Source of the DNA: Mytilus edulis
Taxonomy: Eukaryota
Assembly: GCF_963676685.1 (NCBI RefSeq)
Contig: NC_092352.1
Coordinates: forward strand, 11,532,001-11,596,000
Direction of reading: 5' to 3'
DNA: 64,000 nt
Position numbers: made by a program. This document shows positions 15,001 to 30,000 of this stretch, in pieces. Within the stretch, counting starts at the first letter, position 1; every line of letters begins with the position of its first letter.

Positions 15001-18000
15001 CGTTTTACGTCACACAGGTAGATATTAAATAATTTTGTCGTTCAAAGTATGACGGGATACATAAGTACAGAGTCACGTCAAATGGATATCACAAAAAACA
15101 GACTTAACAGTAAAAGCAATATTAATGAGAAAAATAATTTTGTCGTTCAAAGTATGACGAAATGGATATCACAAAAAGCAGACTTAACAGTAAAAGTAAT
15201 ATTAATAAAGACAAATAAAGAAATACTATAACACGTTATTAAGATGATAAACAACGTCAGTACGCAGAATCTATACTTCAAGTCATCGTGTATTATTTGT
15301 GAAGTTGTGAAGGTCTTGGTTTCTTCCGATGAACTTTTAGAAAAAGGACGAGACGTTCTTTGACATACCCCTGGTTCATCAACTTTCTGTTCAGACACTG
15401 TTGACGTTTTACAAATTCTGAGTAGGAGCTGCAAGCTCTTGAATACCGAATAAGTTGGGAAATGTATATCCCATATGCAGGTGAAGTTGGTATATTGCTA
15501 CTAAGGTGGGGGAAATTGATAATTTCAAAATTAAAATCGTCTCGTTTGTCATAGATTCTGGTACTGAGATGACTGTGTATGTCAAATTCGATGTATAAGT
15601 CTAAAAATGAGGCGGAGGAAGCCGTGTCTGTTGTTTTTTTAATTTCTAGTTCTGGGGGATATATTAATGGAACCCAATCAGAAAAGTTCGGATTTTTAAT
15701 GGAAAGAACATCATCAATACATCTGAAAGTGAAATTAAATAACCTGGCTTCTTTGATCTTCTTGTTTTTGACAAGTGTCTGAAGGAACTCCGATTCATAT
15801 GAAAATAAGAAGAGGTCGGCAAGAAGAGGCGCACAGTTCGTTCCCATAGGAATGCCGACAATTTGTTGAAAAAGTCTACCTCTAAATTCAACAAATACGT
15901 TGTCAATAAGAAACTCAAGCATACTGATCACTTGTTCCTCTGTGTAGCATGTTTTACCCTTTTGTTAACTATTAACAAAATATGCTTTATGGTATCCCAA
16001 AGCAATAAATTTATAGCGTATGCTACCATTTTTATGTTGAAAAGCATTGTGGATTATTTCTTTTAGACGATTTTTCATGCTTCCCTACTGAAATTGATAT
16101 CATACCTTTATGAATAAGAAGATGTGGTATGAGTGCCAATGAGACAACTCTCCATCCAAGTCATAATGTCTAAAAAGTTAACAATGATAGGTCAAAGTAA
16201 GACCTTCAACATTCAAACAGGAAAACCAACGGTCTAATTCATATAAAAAACGAGAAACGAGAAACATCTATGAACCAACCAACAACTGAACAACAGGCTT
16301 CTGACTTAGGCCAGGTGTATAAAAATGAAACGGGTTTAAACGTTTTAACAGGCGCCAAACTTCACCCTAACATGAGACAGTAGTGTACCATTACAACATA
16401 AAAAGACACAATATGAAATATCAATTGAAATGGCTATGTTCATAATTAAACAGTTAAATATTTTTAATTATGTTTTAATAGATTAAAAACAAAAACAATG
16501 TTAGCATCGACGAACAACAATATAGCTACAGTCTGATGATACGTATTTAAGAAAAAGCGTGTGCATTAGGATGAATACAACATTATAATGTCAAGAAGAC
16601 TTATAATTGGTTACCACAAAATAATTCATCATCGCCATGGGTGCAATGTTTTCTGCCGTCACAAAGTAAGCTTGATGAAATGCAGTGACCCTCTTTGCAT
16701 TTGAAGAAGCCTGGCTGGCAAATCTCTTTTTCTACAAAATATATTGTTTTTTTTTTATAAAAGTGTATTTTTAGGGGTGATTGAACAAAGATTCGCAGAT
16801 TTATAGTTGGAAACAAGAATGAAATGTTTTCTGCAATTAAACACAAGATTGTTCAATTATAGACAGTTGTCCATTCAATACATAGAACTATAAACCGTCC
16901 AAAGTTTGAGTAAAACATGAAAACAACACGTTATAAATTGCATGCGTCCGAGGTGCTTTTCTAGATTAACCTTCATCAGGAACGCCCAAAGCCGAATATT
17001 TGAAAGCCAAGGATGTGTAAGAACCGAAATAGTTGAAGAGCTTTATAACCAAAAAGGACCTAAACAAAAAGCCAAATTTAGTAAAAAAAATTTAACACTT
17101 TTATTCCACGGATCGATATGAAAAGAATGCGAACTGAGAAATAGTCTCAAACAAGAGTATGTGTCCAAAAGACCCAATGCCCCGCTCACATCGTGATTCT
17201 CTTTGTCAAATGAAATTGAGGGCAACATTCTCATTTGTAATGCATTTTAGTTGGAAATAATAAATGTAACCTGTGTATTAAGTTTCAAGTTGATGACTAC
17301 AGGCCAAACTGAACTACTTTCATTAAAAACCCTGATAATCATAATTGAATAATACTTATAATACTTAAAATACTTTATTCTATGATAATTTACCAAAGTA
17401 TTGGAAAGAGCTTCAAGAAATCTTCACTGCTGATTCCATAAAGAAACACAAATACTGCTGTGATCACTATAATATGTCTTAACAACTTTCATATGCTTCA
17501 CTATTAGATTGTCTGTGTAAAAATGGTCAAGAATTGACCCACTAATATGTGTTGGTACTGAGACATGTTGTTTTAAGCCGGAATTCAAAAAATAATTCAT
17601 GTAGAACTGATGACTGATCTAAACTAATGTCTTGGTTGATATCTCCTGTGATGATAGAGTTATCGAAAATGTATGGATGTGTTTCAATTAAATCACGAAA
17701 TTTGTCTCGACAATGCATGCTTGGATTTTGTTGATTTGGAGAATTTTAATTTGCTGTAATATAAAGATATCCATTAGAAGTATTCACTTTGATTACAGCG
17801 ATTTGAAGGAAATTGTCCTTGTAAAGAAGCACTTGCTCACTGTAAATTGATTGTTTTACCATAATAGCTGTGCCACCTGCTGTCCTACAAGTTCTGTTGC
17901 CAGGTTTGTCGACTCTGTAAATGTTATGTGTTTTGAAATGTTCTAAAGATGTTGTTTTAATATTGTCAGTTAACCATGTTTCTGTAATTACAATCACATC

Positions 18001-27000: not shown

Positions 27001-30000
27001 ACAGACGGACAAACTTCATGATAAACTACCTCGACCAAAAACTTTAACCTAACATAGGACGAACGGACGCACAGACGGACGAACGGATGCACAGGCGGAC
27101 GAACGGAGGCACAGACCAGAAAACATAATGCCCCTACTACTATCGTAGGCGGGGCATAAAAACATTTGCTATCAATACTACTAGTTTAATTACTATCATA
27201 AGACCATAGGTAAAAGAACCTTCACATATGGCCAAACTCGGTACAATATCACAATAAAAAGATGGTTGCTTTGTAACTCGACTCCAGTCGTAGATACCGA
27301 ACAGTTTACGTGTTGACTGGGGGACTATTCTTAATCATTTGAACAAGCGAGGTGGAAGATACAAAAGGGATATACAAACTCATTAGTTGAAGGAAACCAG
27401 ACAACGCCATGGCAAAAAACGAAAAACGACAAAAAGTCAAATAACAGTGTGCACACTAAATAAAACTAATGACTGAGCAACAGGAACCCCTCCAAATTCC
27501 GGGGCTGATATCAGGTGCTCCCGAAGGGTAAGCAGATTCTGTTCCACATGTAATGCTTTTATAGTACAATTTGTTTGTCTTACCGCAGTGCTGAAGATGA
27601 GTCATATCTCTACATCCATTTACATCATTTCTTTCATTTACACGCATTATGCAGTGATCTGTATAGTTATACAACTTTCCATCAGAACACAAGGAATGGC
27701 TACTGGAAACATTTTTCGAAATTTCTGACAAATAAATATAAGAGTAGTTTACCGATGTTCAAATCGTATAAAACGATTAAAAAAGATAAACGAAGGGAAC
27801 AAGAAAAAGTGAGGGACTCCAAGTAAACAAAGATGACATTATAAGGTAACAGAAAATATATATTCTATACGTTTAGTGAAAAATCTAATCAAACACATTC
27901 ATCTAAGAGGATGAAGCACACATTAAATAATGATGTACGAATCAAGTTTCTCACTGAATCAAAAAGATACATAACCAGAATGCATATCGTCGCTGGGCTT
28001 CTAAAATGTCGTATATGACTTTTTTGGCTAGGAAGAAAACCTTTCGAATTACAAAATAGCATACAGTAAGACCTATCAAAATGTGTGAAATAAGACATAT
28101 TACAAAATTGCCAATGTCAGTTGTTTGTAAAGTTTGCTTCCAAAATGTTGTATGAAAACTTGAAAATCGTTGTAGAATGGCTTTGGGAAAAAAATAATTG
28201 TACATTTCTTTATTTCTGTGAAAATAATTTAAGGACTTGGATAATCCAGAAATGTCAAAGTTTTTATTTCACTGCTATTTACAAAAATGTTCAAGTTCAC
28301 ATACGACATTTTGGAAGCATGCATTTTGCCAAAAGTTTCAAAGCCTGTTTGTGAGATATTTTTTTCTTGAAAAATTTGTAATTTACAACATTTTAGAAGC
28401 CCAGCGACGATATGACTTGAAACAGGAGATTATCAATTAAATTTCGTGACACACTTTAACATATAATTTTTTTTCGCAAACATTGGAAACGATAATACAG
28501 GTTTATAACTTTTCTTCAAATTTTTTCAGCTAAAACATTTGAAAATATATTAATGCTGCCTGTACTTGAAAATTTACCTGATTTACATACAACAGGTCCA
28601 ACTTTCACATCATAAAACCCCTCGTCACTGTAAGATTTATCTGGAACACCGTAACGATGAAACGGAAGTCTATCGGGATTTGAAATGACTATATTATCAG
28701 TAAACACTCTATTGACATCTGATTGACTCCAGTCCATGCCTCCAATACAATGGCAACTACAGAACAAGGAAACTAATGTGATGATGATAATGGAATGCAC
28801 TTTGTTTGAAACAGTTTCATACGGCATCTATACGGTATGAATTGTAAGGTGTTATATTGTGCAATATTGAATTAGCTTTATGTCTGACTATCAAATACTT
28901 GCATTTCTATTGACTTTCAAATATATAGTAAAATTAAGTTGAATTTACCATGTTAATTTTTTTATGTGTTATGATAAGGAATATATAAAAAAAGGTTATA
29001 AATGTAAAGCATACAATGTGATCATAAGAATCGGAAACAACTTAGGGACCGTTCAATATTTATCAGATGGATGGGCCGGTGCATTCTTAATATTGTTTTA
29101 TTAAAAAAGTTATTGCCCATCCTTTTAGATTGTGAAAAAAGTCCTTGCCCATCTAAAAAAATCTATAAAAAAGTCCTTGCCCCTCTAAAACTCTAAGACA
29201 ATCAAAAATGATTTAGGTTCTTTTTCTATTTTAAAGTTTTTAAATTTTTATGTCTTGAAATCAAAGAATAGACTTTATAAAAAATTTAAAATGTGCTAGT
29301 TAATTATATATGTATATATCTATGTGTGTATCAGAACCATACATTTTATTGATTTTTAAAACCAGTATGAATATACATGTACAGATTTGATTTTATATAT
29401 GCAGCCTCAAATACAATATTGATTTAAAATAAAGGAAATAATTCAAATTAAGGGACAATAACTCTTGGACTAGTAAACATATTATCATATACTGAATTAC
29501 TTATTATTGTCCTAAAAACAGAACATGTTTATAGTTCAAATATCAATGTCCCTTTATCTATTCTACTTTTCAAAAAAAAAAAAATATTATGGTCTTTTTA
29601 AGCAAATATAGGCAGACATGTTTTTGACTTTGATGCAGCCTTTTTCGCCTATTAATTAATTCCCTAAATTTGACAGCTTAACACCAAACTATAAAACAAC
29701 CTGGCATTCTTTAAGATGAATATATAAATGAGATAGCTGTACAGTTATATGAAAATCTAAGTTGATTTGAAAAAGTTATAAAAAAAATGAAAGGTGACCA
29801 TCTGAACTTAGTCGAAACTTAAAATTGTAGCTTTTTTTCAACCTATTAACTAATTCCTTTAAATGACAGCAAAAAAAAAAAACAAAGTACAAAACAGCCT
29901 GGCATTCAGTAAGATCAATATACAAATGATATAGCAGTAGAGTTTTATGAAAATGCAAGTTGATTTGAAAAAGTTATGAAAAAAATTAAAGATGACTATC

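What the first reader, a model, noticed from the sequence alone, without database searches (positions are those of the whole stretch)
17149..27162. Complete coding Helentron with the satellite-bearing HINE architecture
Seen: both termini, the 5' IR pair, GGAC microsatellite, a 179-bp tandem array, diverged satellite-like remnants (~26045-26215 and ~17250-17300) and a whole Rep-Hel-EN coding region in one element. Established: bivalve HINE/pearl-type elements have this layout, are non-coding and seed satellite DNA. Inference: this is the coding parent type of a satellite-carrying HINE family, with the ORF placed between core repeats.
Basis: partly seen in the sequence, partly recalled or inferred. 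Interest (0 to 1): 0.7.

Follow-up and report, generated by a model that had tools for sequence, protein, structure and literature searches.

The report
Dead full-length Helentron with satellite array
A 10-kb rolling-circle transposon (Helentron) in a mussel genome still has both ends, a short satellite-like repeat array and every protein domain, but its gene is broken in many places, so it is a fossil of the kind of element that could carry satellite repeats around, not a working one.

Summary
The element is real and lies on the minus strand. From 5' to 3' it has:
- a T-run, a 13-nt subterminal repeat and its hairpin partner;
- a GTCY (=GGAC/ACGG) microsatellite;
- a 70-bp x3 junction repeat and a 179-bp x3.8 array;
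- a 1.4-kb AT-rich spacer;
- a ~7.36-kb reading frame (C2H2 fingers, OTU, DUF6570, Rep, PIF1 helicase, AP endonuclease);
- 235 nt after the stop codon, the matching 3' subterminal repeat and small hairpins.

No inner termini were found.

Three parts of the finding do not hold.
- The gene is not intact. It has 4 in-frame stops, 7 one-base frameshifts and a changed conserved Rep residue. Gene models from other Mytilus assemblies need the same frame change at four of the seven frameshift sites.
- The "satellite-like remnants" reduce to one 28-nt monomer piece at the end of the array. Nothing monomer-like lies after the gene, so the ORF sits downstream of the array, not between core repeats.
- The 3' end may be at 17149 or at about 17121.

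"Parent of a HINE family" could not be tested, because no mussel genome DNA, Repbase or Dfam was available. The nearest Rep proteins are Mytilus fragments (up to 98% identical), then other bivalve Helentrons (~58%). My verdict is a new member of a known kind, of moderate interest.

The parts
27158..27162 (-). 5' terminal T-run (TTTTT). The exact first base is ambiguous within the run.
   Evidence: Sequence read. Helentrons carry 2-5 terminal Ts (PMC4067079, section 8).
27145..27157 (-). 5' subterminal inverted repeat (subTIR), ATGCCCCGCCTAC
   Evidence: It pairs with 17189-17177 at 11 of 13 positions.
27128..27140 (-). IR, the hairpin partner of the 5' subTIR (GTAGTAGGGGCAT), 4 nt downstream of it
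   Evidence: Fold: -9.8 kcal/mol, z -2.7, 1 of 200 shuffles as good.
27057..27116 (-). GTCY-type (GGAC/ACGG) microsatellite, degenerate, with a 20-nt period x3
   Evidence: TRF and pattern count.
26872..27084 (-). 70-bp x3 tandem repeat. Each unit holds about 25 nt of microsatellite plus the first ~41 nt of the 179-bp monomer.
   Evidence: TRF (97% matches), self-BLAST, sequence.
26225..26912 (-). 179-bp satellite-like array, 3.8 copies (179, 179, 186 and 141-143 nt)
   Evidence: TRF (94%), pairwise identities of 89-98%, alignment.
26190..26217 (-). 28-nt monomer fragment (monomer positions 19-46) after a 7-nt filler. This is the only 'remnant' that holds up.
24788..26189 (-). AT-rich spacer without a long ORF; presumed promoter and 5' UTR
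   Evidence: Composition. ORF list: within the spacer the longest frame is 57 aa.
17424..24787 (-). Conceptual single coding region (ATG at 24787, TGA at 17426-17424), broken by 4 stops and 7 frameshifts
24539..24733 (-). Three C2H2 zinc fingers
   Evidence: Pfam PF00096, E 1.3e-10.
23626..23985 (-). OTU cysteine protease domain. A frameshift in a T5 run sits inside the GDGNCF motif at about 23960.
   Evidence: Pfam PF02338, E 7.1e-8; frames.
22777..23327 (-). 69-bp (23-aa) coding tandem repeat x8, holding the in-frame TAA at 22917-22915
   Evidence: TRF.
22056..22422 (-). DUF6570 (marker of the HLE2/Helentron group), holding the TGA at 22278-22276 and the T7 frameshift at about 22135
   Evidence: Pfam PF20209, E 3.7e-5.
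21062..21661 (-). Rep (HUH) domain with the motif IEFRQRGSPHAH
   Evidence: Pfam PF14214, E 3.2e-26; translation.
18199..19489 (-). PIF1-type helicase, with a T4 frameshift at about 19090 and TGG>TGA at 18333-18331
   Evidence: Pfam PF05970 and PF21530.
17460..18021 (-). AP-type endonuclease domain, with TAA at 17748-17746 and a frameshift at about 17590
   Evidence: tblastn to the EN domain of P0003. P0003 scores PF03372 at E 2.5e-11; the window piece alone scores E 0.0087, below the cut-off.
17177..17189 (-). 3' subTIR, GTGAGCGGGGCAT
17160..17176 (-). 3' hairpin candidate 1 (TGGGTC...GACACA), directly after the subTIR
   Evidence: Fold (57-nt stretch: z -3.0, 3 of 200 shuffles as good).
17135..17149 (-). 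3' hairpin candidate 2 (TGAGA-CTATT-TCTCA). If this is the real hairpin, the element ends at the T-run 17124-17121.
   Evidence: Fold.

Best explanation
Window 27162 to 17149 (or to about 17121), minus strand, is one copy of an endonuclease-encoding rolling-circle transposon (Helentron, HLE2 group) in a Mytilus genome. It probably sits in an intron of an LRR/7TM receptor gene.

Shown here:
- Its two ends carry matching subterminal inverted repeats.
- The 5' end also has the IR hairpin and a GTCY microsatellite, followed directly by a 179-bp tandem array. This is the non-coding cassette known from bivalve HINE/pearl elements.
- The interior encodes one long ZnF-OTU-DUF6570-Rep-PIF1-EN protein in the same orientation as the ends.
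- The gene is dead, with 4 nonsense codons, 7 one-base frameshifts in homopolymer runs, and Q>R in Rep motif 2.

Inferred from what is established for Helentrons:
- A working Rep would nick at the 5' end and the helicase would unwind towards the 3' subTIR and hairpin, which ends the copy. The released strand would integrate at a T-rich (TT) site.
- Anything between the ends, the array included, travels with the element.
- An internal deletion that removes the gene would leave LF-microsatellite-array-RF, which is a HINE.
- This copy cannot make transposase. At most it could be moved by another copy's protein.
- The 70-bp triplication across the microsatellite/array junction shows that tandem units are still being made inside the element.
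For: - Ends: the subTIR pair matches at 11 of 13 positions and is the only G+C-rich pair among 52 candidates.
- The subTIR motif (up to 3 mismatches) matches 5 times in the window. Three of these are exactly the 5' subTIR, the IR and the 3' subTIR.
- The 5' hairpin is significant.
- The microsatellite and the arrays are confirmed.
- Pfam hits were found on 8 of 12 ORF pieces, 6 of them above the curated cut-off: zf-C2H2, OTU, DUF6570, Helitron_like_N, PIF1 and Pif1_2B.
- The EN domain aligns to that of homologue P0003.
- The Helentron signature G-S-P-H-x-H is present (against PMC4067079 section 7).
- Orientation and spacing fit one element. The ORF starts 1.4 kb after the array, and the 3' subTIR lies 235 nt after the stop codon.
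- No inner termini: AT-rich 12-of-13 pairs number 2, against 2.9 expected, and there is no RF-like motif after the array.
- Lesions are documented. Four of the 7 frameshift sites need the same frame change in gene models from other Mytilus assemblies (P0125, P0213, P0043), so those four are real mutations and not assembly errors.
- Rep tree: the window plus a M. galloprovincialis fragment is sister to the Mercenaria/Pinctada/C. virginica Helentrons, SH-aLRT 99 (quick tree).
Against: - Only one copy could be examined. There is no second copy in the window and no mussel genome DNA was available.
- Neither terminus is confirmed by an empty site or by a second copy, and the 3' end is ambiguous (17149 or 17121).
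- The subTIRs have 2 mismatches in 13.
- The 3' hairpins are tiny (3-5 bp stems).
- The EN domain does not reach the Pfam cut-off on its own (16.3 bits against 24.5).
- A terminus-less fragment of a Helentron inserted into a HINE would look the same in a single copy.
- Three of the 7 frameshifts have no outside support and could be homopolymer errors of the assembly.
Confidence: 0.7

Rival explanations
1. Composite locus. A pre-existing non-coding HINE (LF, microsatellite, array, RF) received about 9 kb of Helentron coding DNA between its array and its RF. This could happen by insertion of a copy that lost its own ends, or by filler-DNA capture. In that case the ends and the gene have separate histories.
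For: - Complex, shuffled and nested Helitron/Helentron loci are reported in C. gigas (PMC12628747, passages).
- Cg_HINEs are often found integrated in other repeats (PMC7492417, section 10).
- The array ends in a truncated monomer, a 7-nt filler and a 28-nt monomer piece, which is a rearranged junction exactly where such an insertion would sit.
Against: - No inner subTIR, hairpin or T-run pair above chance.
- The gene has the usual orientation relative to the ends.
- The stop codon lies only 235 nt before the 3' subTIR.
- The 9 kb shows only Helentron coding sequence plus a spacer, with no sign of a second element.
Confidence: 0.15
2. Direction reversed. The coding lineage acquired its 5' cassette (microsatellite plus 179-bp array) secondarily, by recombination or template switching with an already abundant HINE or satellite. 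On this reading the element is a recipient of satellite DNA, not the parent of a satellite-bearing HINE family.
For: - In C. gigas, related flanks carry unrelated arrays and some elements carry two arrays. The authors read this as independent incorporation events (PMC7492417, section 10).
- The monomer has no detectable similarity to the element's own spacer or 3' region, so it did not arise from the sequence now present there.
Against: Nothing here decides the direction. The array is oriented and placed as in HINEs, directly after the microsatellite, which fits either order of events.
Confidence: 0.2
3. Assembly artefact. Unrelated repeats were mis-joined, so the element as drawn never existed on one molecule.
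For: The region is repeat-rich. All 7 frameshifts lie in homopolymer runs, which is a pattern long-read assemblies also produce.
Against: - There are no Ns in the window.
- The two ends match each other across 10 kb.
- Four frameshift sites recur in gene models from other assemblies.
- The 4 stop codons are substitutions, not indels.
Confidence: 0.03

Closest known systems
Cg_HINE elements of Crassostrea gigas (Vojvoda Zeljko et al. 2020, PMC7492417; sections 7 and 10 read)
   Same: - The 5' subTIR is followed, after a short gap (here 4 nt; 1-12 in the paper), by a complementary IR.
- The microsatellite is GTCY/GTCC-type.
- The array is short (here 3.8 copies; mostly up to 5) with 140-180-bp monomers (here 179).
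- The 3' subTIR is followed by a palindrome.
- The ends are T-rich.
   Different: - Cg_HINEs are non-coding, and their RF follows the array directly. Here 9 kb with a full set of Helentron domains lies between the array and the RF.
- The host genus is different.
- No sequence comparison was possible, because the consensus sequences are in figures and supplements that I could not see.
pearl elements (CvA/CvE/CvG) and DTC84 of Donax trunculus (PMC3879986, passages read); MgE of Mytilus galloprovincialis (known to me only as cited there)
   Same: The modular layout is the same: flank, core repeats (1-5), tetranucleotide microsatellite, flank. The ACGG motif of CvG and DTC84 is the same repeat as GGAC/GTCC here.
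   Different: - Those elements are short and non-coding.
- MgE is said to lack the microsatellite (PMC3879986, passage), whereas this Mytilus element has one.
- No sequence comparison was possible.
Autonomous Helentron / HINE partner pairs of mite, Culex and Drosophila (Helentron-Mo, -Cq, -Da/-Dw with DINE-1; Thomas et al. 2014, PMC4067079, sections 7-8 read)
   Same: - subTIRs of 12-15 nt, an IR or palindromic subTIR, and a 3' stem-loop.
- Terminal Ts and TT target sites.
- A Rep-Hel-EN ORF in the plus orientation, N-terminal zinc fingers, and an optional OTU domain.
- HINEs are simple deletion derivatives that share the ends.
   Different: - In those cases the partner relation was shown with multiple copies at 84-99.9% identity and with empty sites. 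Here there is a single dead copy and no derivative in hand.
- In the sections I read, tandem repeats are mentioned for the non-autonomous copies, not for the coding partner.
Predicted Helentron proteins of other bivalves (Pinctada imbricata P0004, Crassostrea virginica P0005, Mercenaria P0010) and unnamed P0001-P0003
   Same: The DUF6570-Rep-PIF1(-EN) order is the same, with 55-59% identity over the 520-aa Rep stretch. They are the sister clade in the Rep tree.
   Different: They are only about 58% identical, so they belong to a different family. Their DNA ends are unknown to me. P0004 has no OTU domain in its precomputed Pfam list.

Membership tests
Helentron (HLE2, EN-bearing subgroup) | Rep HUH domain with the Helentron-type motif 2 (...RG-S-P-H-x-H) | tested here: met
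   PF14214, E 3.2e-26. The translation reads IEFRQRGSPHAH, with the diagnostic S between G and P as in PMC4067079 section 7. The conserved Q is R in this copy; it is Q in P0126 and P0003.
Helentron (HLE2, EN-bearing subgroup) | DUF6570 upstream of Rep (marker of HLE2 according to HELIANO, PMC11417382, passages) | tested here: met
   PF20209 scores 24.6 bits against a cut-off of 24.3 on piece 22279-22914. The second half scores 18.9 bits on the next piece. The domain is split by a stop codon and a frameshift.
Helentron (HLE2, EN-bearing subgroup) | PIF1-type helicase fused after Rep | tested here: met
   PF05970, E 5.7e-17, and PF21530, E 2e-7. The Walker A motif GAGTGKSH and the motif IIDEISMV are visible.
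Helentron (HLE2, EN-bearing subgroup) | C-terminal apurinic/apyrimidinic-type endonuclease | tested here: met
   Window 18021-17460 aligns to the EN domain of P0003. P0003 scores PF03372 at E 2.5e-11. The window piece alone scores only 16.3 bits against a cut-off of 24.5.
Helentron (HLE2, EN-bearing subgroup) | Short (11-16 nt) inverted repeats near both ends | tested here: met
   27157-27145 against 17189-17177: 11 of 13 complementary, 9 contiguous. It is the only G+C-rich pair among 52 candidates.
Helentron (HLE2, EN-bearing subgroup) | Stem-loop after the right repeat, close to the 3' end | tested here: met
   There are two small hairpins, at 17176-17160 and 17149-17135. The 57-nt stretch folds with z -3.0, and 3 of 200 shuffles fold as well. 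Which hairpin is the functional one is undecided.
Helentron (HLE2, EN-bearing subgroup) | Insertion between two Ts without target duplication, shown by an empty site | not testable with these tools
   T-runs lie at both ends. No empty site or second copy was available.
Autonomous (transposition-competent) Helentron | Uninterrupted Rep-Hel-EN reading frame | tested here: not met
   There are 4 in-frame stops (22917, 22278, 18333, 17748) and 7 frameshifts (about 23960, 22135, 21875, 20425, 20130, 19090 and 17590). Four of these frameshift sites need the same frame change in other assemblies' gene models.
HINE / pearl-type cassette | 5' subTIR plus complementary IR plus tetranucleotide microsatellite in the left flank | tested here: met
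HINE / pearl-type cassette | Central array of up to about 5 monomers of 140-180 bp in one orientation, next to the microsatellite | tested here: met
   179 bp x3.8, starting about 5 nt after the last microsatellite unit.
HINE / pearl-type cassette | Non-coding, with the right flank directly after the array | tested here: not met
   About 9 kb, including the whole coding region, lies between the array end (26190) and the 3' subTIR (17189).
HINE / pearl-type cassette | High copy number of short derivatives that share these flanks and this monomer | not testable with these tools
   There is no other copy in the window. The only open DNA collection holds bacteria and archaea; its scan gave 2 unrelated hairpins.
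Canonical Helitron (HLE1) | 5'-TC start, 3' hairpin plus CTRR end, A/T target, no terminal inverted repeats, no EN | tested here: not met
   The ends read TTTTTATGCCCC... and ...CTCTTGTTT. Inverted repeats, DUF6570 and EN are all present.

The most novel reading that the evidence does not exclude
This would be the first coding-type Helentron of a bivalve seen to carry the complete pearl/HINE cassette (subTIR, IR, GTCY microsatellite, ~180-bp array) within its own ends. If so, the satellite-seeding arrays are native cargo of the autonomous lineage, sitting between the 5' end and the gene, and bivalve HINEs arise from such elements by one internal deletion. The partner relation left unresolved for Cg_HINEs (PMC7492417, section 10) would then become testable in Mytilus.
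Probability: 0.35. Interest if true: 0.6.

Novelty: new member of a known kind. Interest (0 to 1): 0.4.

Why it matters
In bivalves a large share of satellite DNA sits inside, or derives from, non-coding Helentron relatives (HINEs). The coding elements that move them have not been tied to them. For C. gigas, the authors report that none of 10 autonomous Repbase Helentrons could be related to any Cg_HINE (PMC7492417, section 10).

A coding-type copy with the HINE cassette inside its own ends gives concrete probes for asking three things in mussel genomes:
- whether HINEs are deletion derivatives of such elements;
- whether an intact source copy still exists;
- whether this monomer also forms long satellite arrays.

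The probes are the two flanks, the 179-bp monomer and the Rep sequence. The copy itself is inert.

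Tried and rejected
- Second copy or related flank in the window: none. Self-BLAST found nothing. Tiled local alignment of LF and RF over 706 tiles gave only microsatellite-like matches.
- Inner termini: none above chance.
- Monomer-like sequence in the spacer or after the ORF: none.
- Scan of genome contigs with the degenerate 5' hairpin pattern: 2 hits, both bacterial hairpins unrelated to the element.
- The bacterial promoter/terminator scan of the spacer gave 15 sites against 12.8 expected. It has no meaning for a eukaryote and I disregard it.
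- Rfam and tRNA scans of the window: nothing.
- A palindrome in the monomer at the spot where monomer 4 breaks off and monomer 3 has an insertion is visible. It folds no better than shuffles (z -0.71, 39 of 200), so I make no claim for it.
- Introns as the cause of the frame breaks: rejected. Every break aligns to homologues without a gap in the DNA.
- Literature search was swamped by the clinical acronym HINE and gave one useful paper.
- Not tried: structure prediction, complex prediction, the protein atlas and the 1.84-billion-protein search. None of them bears on the open question.

Full report
**What is there**

The window has no Ns and is AT-rich, at 27-36% G+C. All long open stretches between 17.4 and 24.8 kb lie on the minus strand, so the element reads from 27162 down to about 17149.

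On that strand the order is as follows:
- The 5' end has a T-run at 27162-27158.
- The 5' subTIR ATGCCCCGCCTAC lies at 27157-27145. After a 4-nt loop comes its partner GTAGTAGGGGCAT at 27140-27128.
- A degenerate GTCY microsatellite lies at 27116-27057.
- A 70-bp unit is repeated three times at 27084-26872 (97% matches). Each unit is made of about 25 nt of microsatellite plus the first ~41 nt of the monomer.
- There are 3.8 copies of a 179-bp monomer at 26912-26225 (94% matches). Pairwise identity is 89-98%.
- After a 7-nt filler comes a 28-nt monomer piece at 26217-26190.
- A 1.4-kb AT-rich spacer follows, where the longest frame is 57 aa.
- The coding region runs from the ATG at 24787 to the TGA at 17426-17424.
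- 235 nt after the stop codon, GTGAGCGGGGCAT lies at 17189-17177.
- Two small hairpins follow, at 17176-17160 and 17149-17135, with T-runs at 17151-17149 and 17124-17121.

**Is it more than chance?**

- The 30-nt 5' hairpin is unique in the window, with 0 expected. It folds at -9.8 kcal/mol, and 1 of 200 shuffles folds as well.
- I compared the 5' 2.5 kb with the 3' 0.5 kb for 13-mer inverted pairs with up to 2 mismatches. Of 52 such pairs, only the outer pair is G+C-rich (9 of 13 G+C). It matches at 11 of 13 positions, 9 of them contiguous.
- With up to 3 mismatches the subTIR motif occurs 5 times in the window (2.0 expected; 2 of 100 shuffles reach 5). Three of these are exactly the 5' subTIR, the IR and the 3' subTIR.
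- Of the 19 window matches to a GTCY pattern, 14 lie at 26917-27108, against 1.6 expected for the whole window.

**The gene**

The open stretches were searched piece by piece.

Eight of 12 pieces hit Pfam, 6 of them above the curated cut-off: zf-C2H2 x3, OTU, DUF6570, Helitron_like_N, PIF1 and Pif1_2B. Two further hits were below the cut-off, and four pieces hit nothing.

The endonuclease part aligns to the EN domain of homologue P0003. P0003 scores PF03372 at E 2.5e-11. The window piece alone scores only 16.3 bits against a cut-off of 24.5.

The Rep motif reads IEFRQRGSPHAH. The serine between G and P is the Helentron signature named in PMC4067079 (section 7). DUF6570 is the HLE2 marker named in PMC11417382 (passages).

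**The gene is broken**

tblastn of P0003 and a three-frame reading show the following lesions.

In-frame stops:
- TAA at 22917-22915, where sister repeat units have CAA.
- TGA at 22278-22276, where other Mytilus copies read Gly-Arg.
- TGA at 18333-18331, replacing the Trp of the helicase motif LxWAxTxHKxQG.
- TAA at 17748-17746, in the endonuclease.

One-base frameshifts:
- about 23960 (T5 run, inside the OTU motif GDGNCF);
- about 22135 (T7 run);
- about 21875 (A8 run);
- about 20425 (A5 run);
- about 20130 (A8 run);
- about 19090 (T4 run);
- about 17590 (probably the T6 run).

Homopolymer runs of 4 or more cover 10% of the coding region, so all seven falling in such runs is not chance. The pattern fits either replication slippage or assembly error.

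Gene models from other assemblies argue against assembly error for four of the sites:
- The M. edulis model P0125 has contiguous residues, but its window coordinates jump by 80, 79 and 307 nt. These jumps fall exactly over sites 20425, 20130 and 19090, which is 3 of its 4 jumps.
- Two M. galloprovincialis models from different contigs (P0213 and P0043) both jump over the site at 22135.

Other lesions are not shared by every copy:
- P0213 and P0043 read straight through 21875 and have Gly-Arg at 22278.
- P0126 and P0142 read straight through 20425.
- P0126 has Q where the window has R in Rep motif 2.

None of the breaks is an intron, because homologues align across each break with no extra DNA.

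**One element or two?**

I found none.
- AT-rich pairs matching at 12 of 13 number 2, against 2.9 expected (64 of 100 shuffles reach 2).
- No RF-like motif follows the array.
- The ORF has the usual orientation relative to the ends.
- The 3' subTIR lies close behind the stop codon.

This favours a single element. One copy cannot exclude a terminus-less insertion into a HINE. The rearranged end of the array is where such a join would sit.

**The 'remnants' and 'ORF between core repeats'**

- Local alignment of a monomer dimer to 26045-26224 scores 51, against 18.7 +/- 2.5 in shuffles (0 of 300 reach it). That score comes entirely from the 28-nt piece.
- For 17250-17300, 27 of 300 shuffles reach the observed score.
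- 17190-17430 and the spacer score at the shuffle mean.

So the array lies wholly upstream of the gene.

**Relatives**

The 520-aa Rep stretch finds 357 proteins of 911-2,600 aa at E <= 1e-10 among 4,882 candidates. It also finds 201 proteins of 286-910 aa at E <= 1e-20 among 7,999 scored candidates.

The close hits are all Mytilus fragments or chimeric models:
- P0213, 98% identical;
- P0043, 96%;
- P0125, 95%;
- P0142 (M. coruscus), 92%;
- P0126, which is 98% identical over 204 tree columns.

No long intact model of this family appeared among the 911-2,600-aa hits. That is weak evidence against an intact copy, because annotators mask transposons.

The next-best hits are bivalve Helentrons at 55-59% identity (Pinctada, C. 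virginica, Mercenaria). Other Mytilus Helentron lineages are only about 40% identical.

A quick IQ-TREE of 32 Rep rows places the window plus P0126 as sister to the Mercenaria/Pinctada/C. virginica group (SH-aLRT 99). The careful search did not finish, the tree has no HLE1 outgroup and it is midpoint-rooted. I chose the 31 homologues by hand, mostly those with organism names, from the 240 proteins listed.

**Literature**

The HINE layout is described for C. gigas in PMC7492417 (sections 7 and 10 read): subTIR, IR, microsatellite (often GTCY/GTCC), 140-180-bp repeats mostly up to 5, then a 3' subTIR plus palindrome. The same paper states that 10 autonomous C. gigas Helentrons from Repbase could not be related to any Cg_HINE.

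The pearl/DTC84 layout, the ACGG motif, and the remark that the M. galloprovincialis element MgE lacks the microsatellite are in PMC3879986 (passages).

Partner pairs of coding Helentrons and HINEs that share ends are established for mite, Culex and Drosophila (PMC4067079, sections 7-8).

Searches found no paper in the held library that describes a coding bivalve Helentron with such an array. I also read passages of PMC11136912, PMC8268682, PMC12628747, PMC10294476, PMC11417382 and the preprint 10.64898/2026.02.10.705023. Repbase, Dfam, subscription journals and all supplements were out of reach, so 'not in print' is not established.

**What stayed unchecked**

- As a result, copy number, short derivatives, empty sites, the exact 3' end and any long arrays of the monomer are all untested.

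**Verdict**

This is a real, full-length but dead Helentron with the HINE cassette at its 5' end. 'Complete coding' and 'ORF between core repeats' are wrong. The parent-of-HINE inference is plausible but open.

Noticed in passing
window 29648-30511: A second satellite-like array lies 2.5 kb beyond the element's 5' end: 196 bp x4.4, 77% matches. It has no similarity to the 179-bp monomer. I saw no HINE-type flank when reading the sequence.
   Followed up: partly
window 2749-3152 and 5745-6959: Arrays of a 20-bp unit with the palindromic core TTTAACGCGTTAAA. There are 42 copies at 5745-6584 with 91% matches.
   Followed up: no
window 3900-4010 (minus strand): A short GTCC microsatellite at 3951-3932 is preceded about 30 nt upstream by ATGCCCTAC. 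This may be a relic of the 5' end of another HINE-type element.
   Followed up: partly
window 12815-14344, 35009-35386, 48891-49232, 50212-50832 (all minus strand): Host exons are present: LRR plus 7tm_1 receptor, LDL-receptor class A, C-type lectin and CUB. The Helentron lies between the LDLa exon and the LRR/7TM exon on the same strand. It is probably in an intron of an LGR/relaxin-receptor-like gene.
   Followed up: partly
window 722-2743 (+) and 11605-12399 (-): Other mobile-element remains are present: a 674-aa open frame with DUF1759/DUF1758 (gag-protease of the BEL/Pao type) and a zf-RVT fragment.
   Followed up: no
window 22777-23327 (minus strand): The coding region holds eight copies of a 69-bp (23-aa) repeat between OTU and DUF6570. 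The ~58%-identical homologue P0003 also shows 23-aa repeats at the same place. The repeat region therefore seems to be a conserved feature of this protein lineage.
   Followed up: partly
window 27340-27391, 35670-35713, 48379-48425: A ~45-nt sequence just outside the 5' end recurs twice in the window at 79-84% identity. It is probably a small interspersed repeat.
   Followed up: no
proteins P0013, P0132, P0221: Helentron Rep proteins are labelled as proteins of bacterial MAGs (Sedimenticola sp., Proteobacteria bacterium) on contigs of 2-7 kb. They are most likely animal-host contamination in those bins.
   Followed up: no
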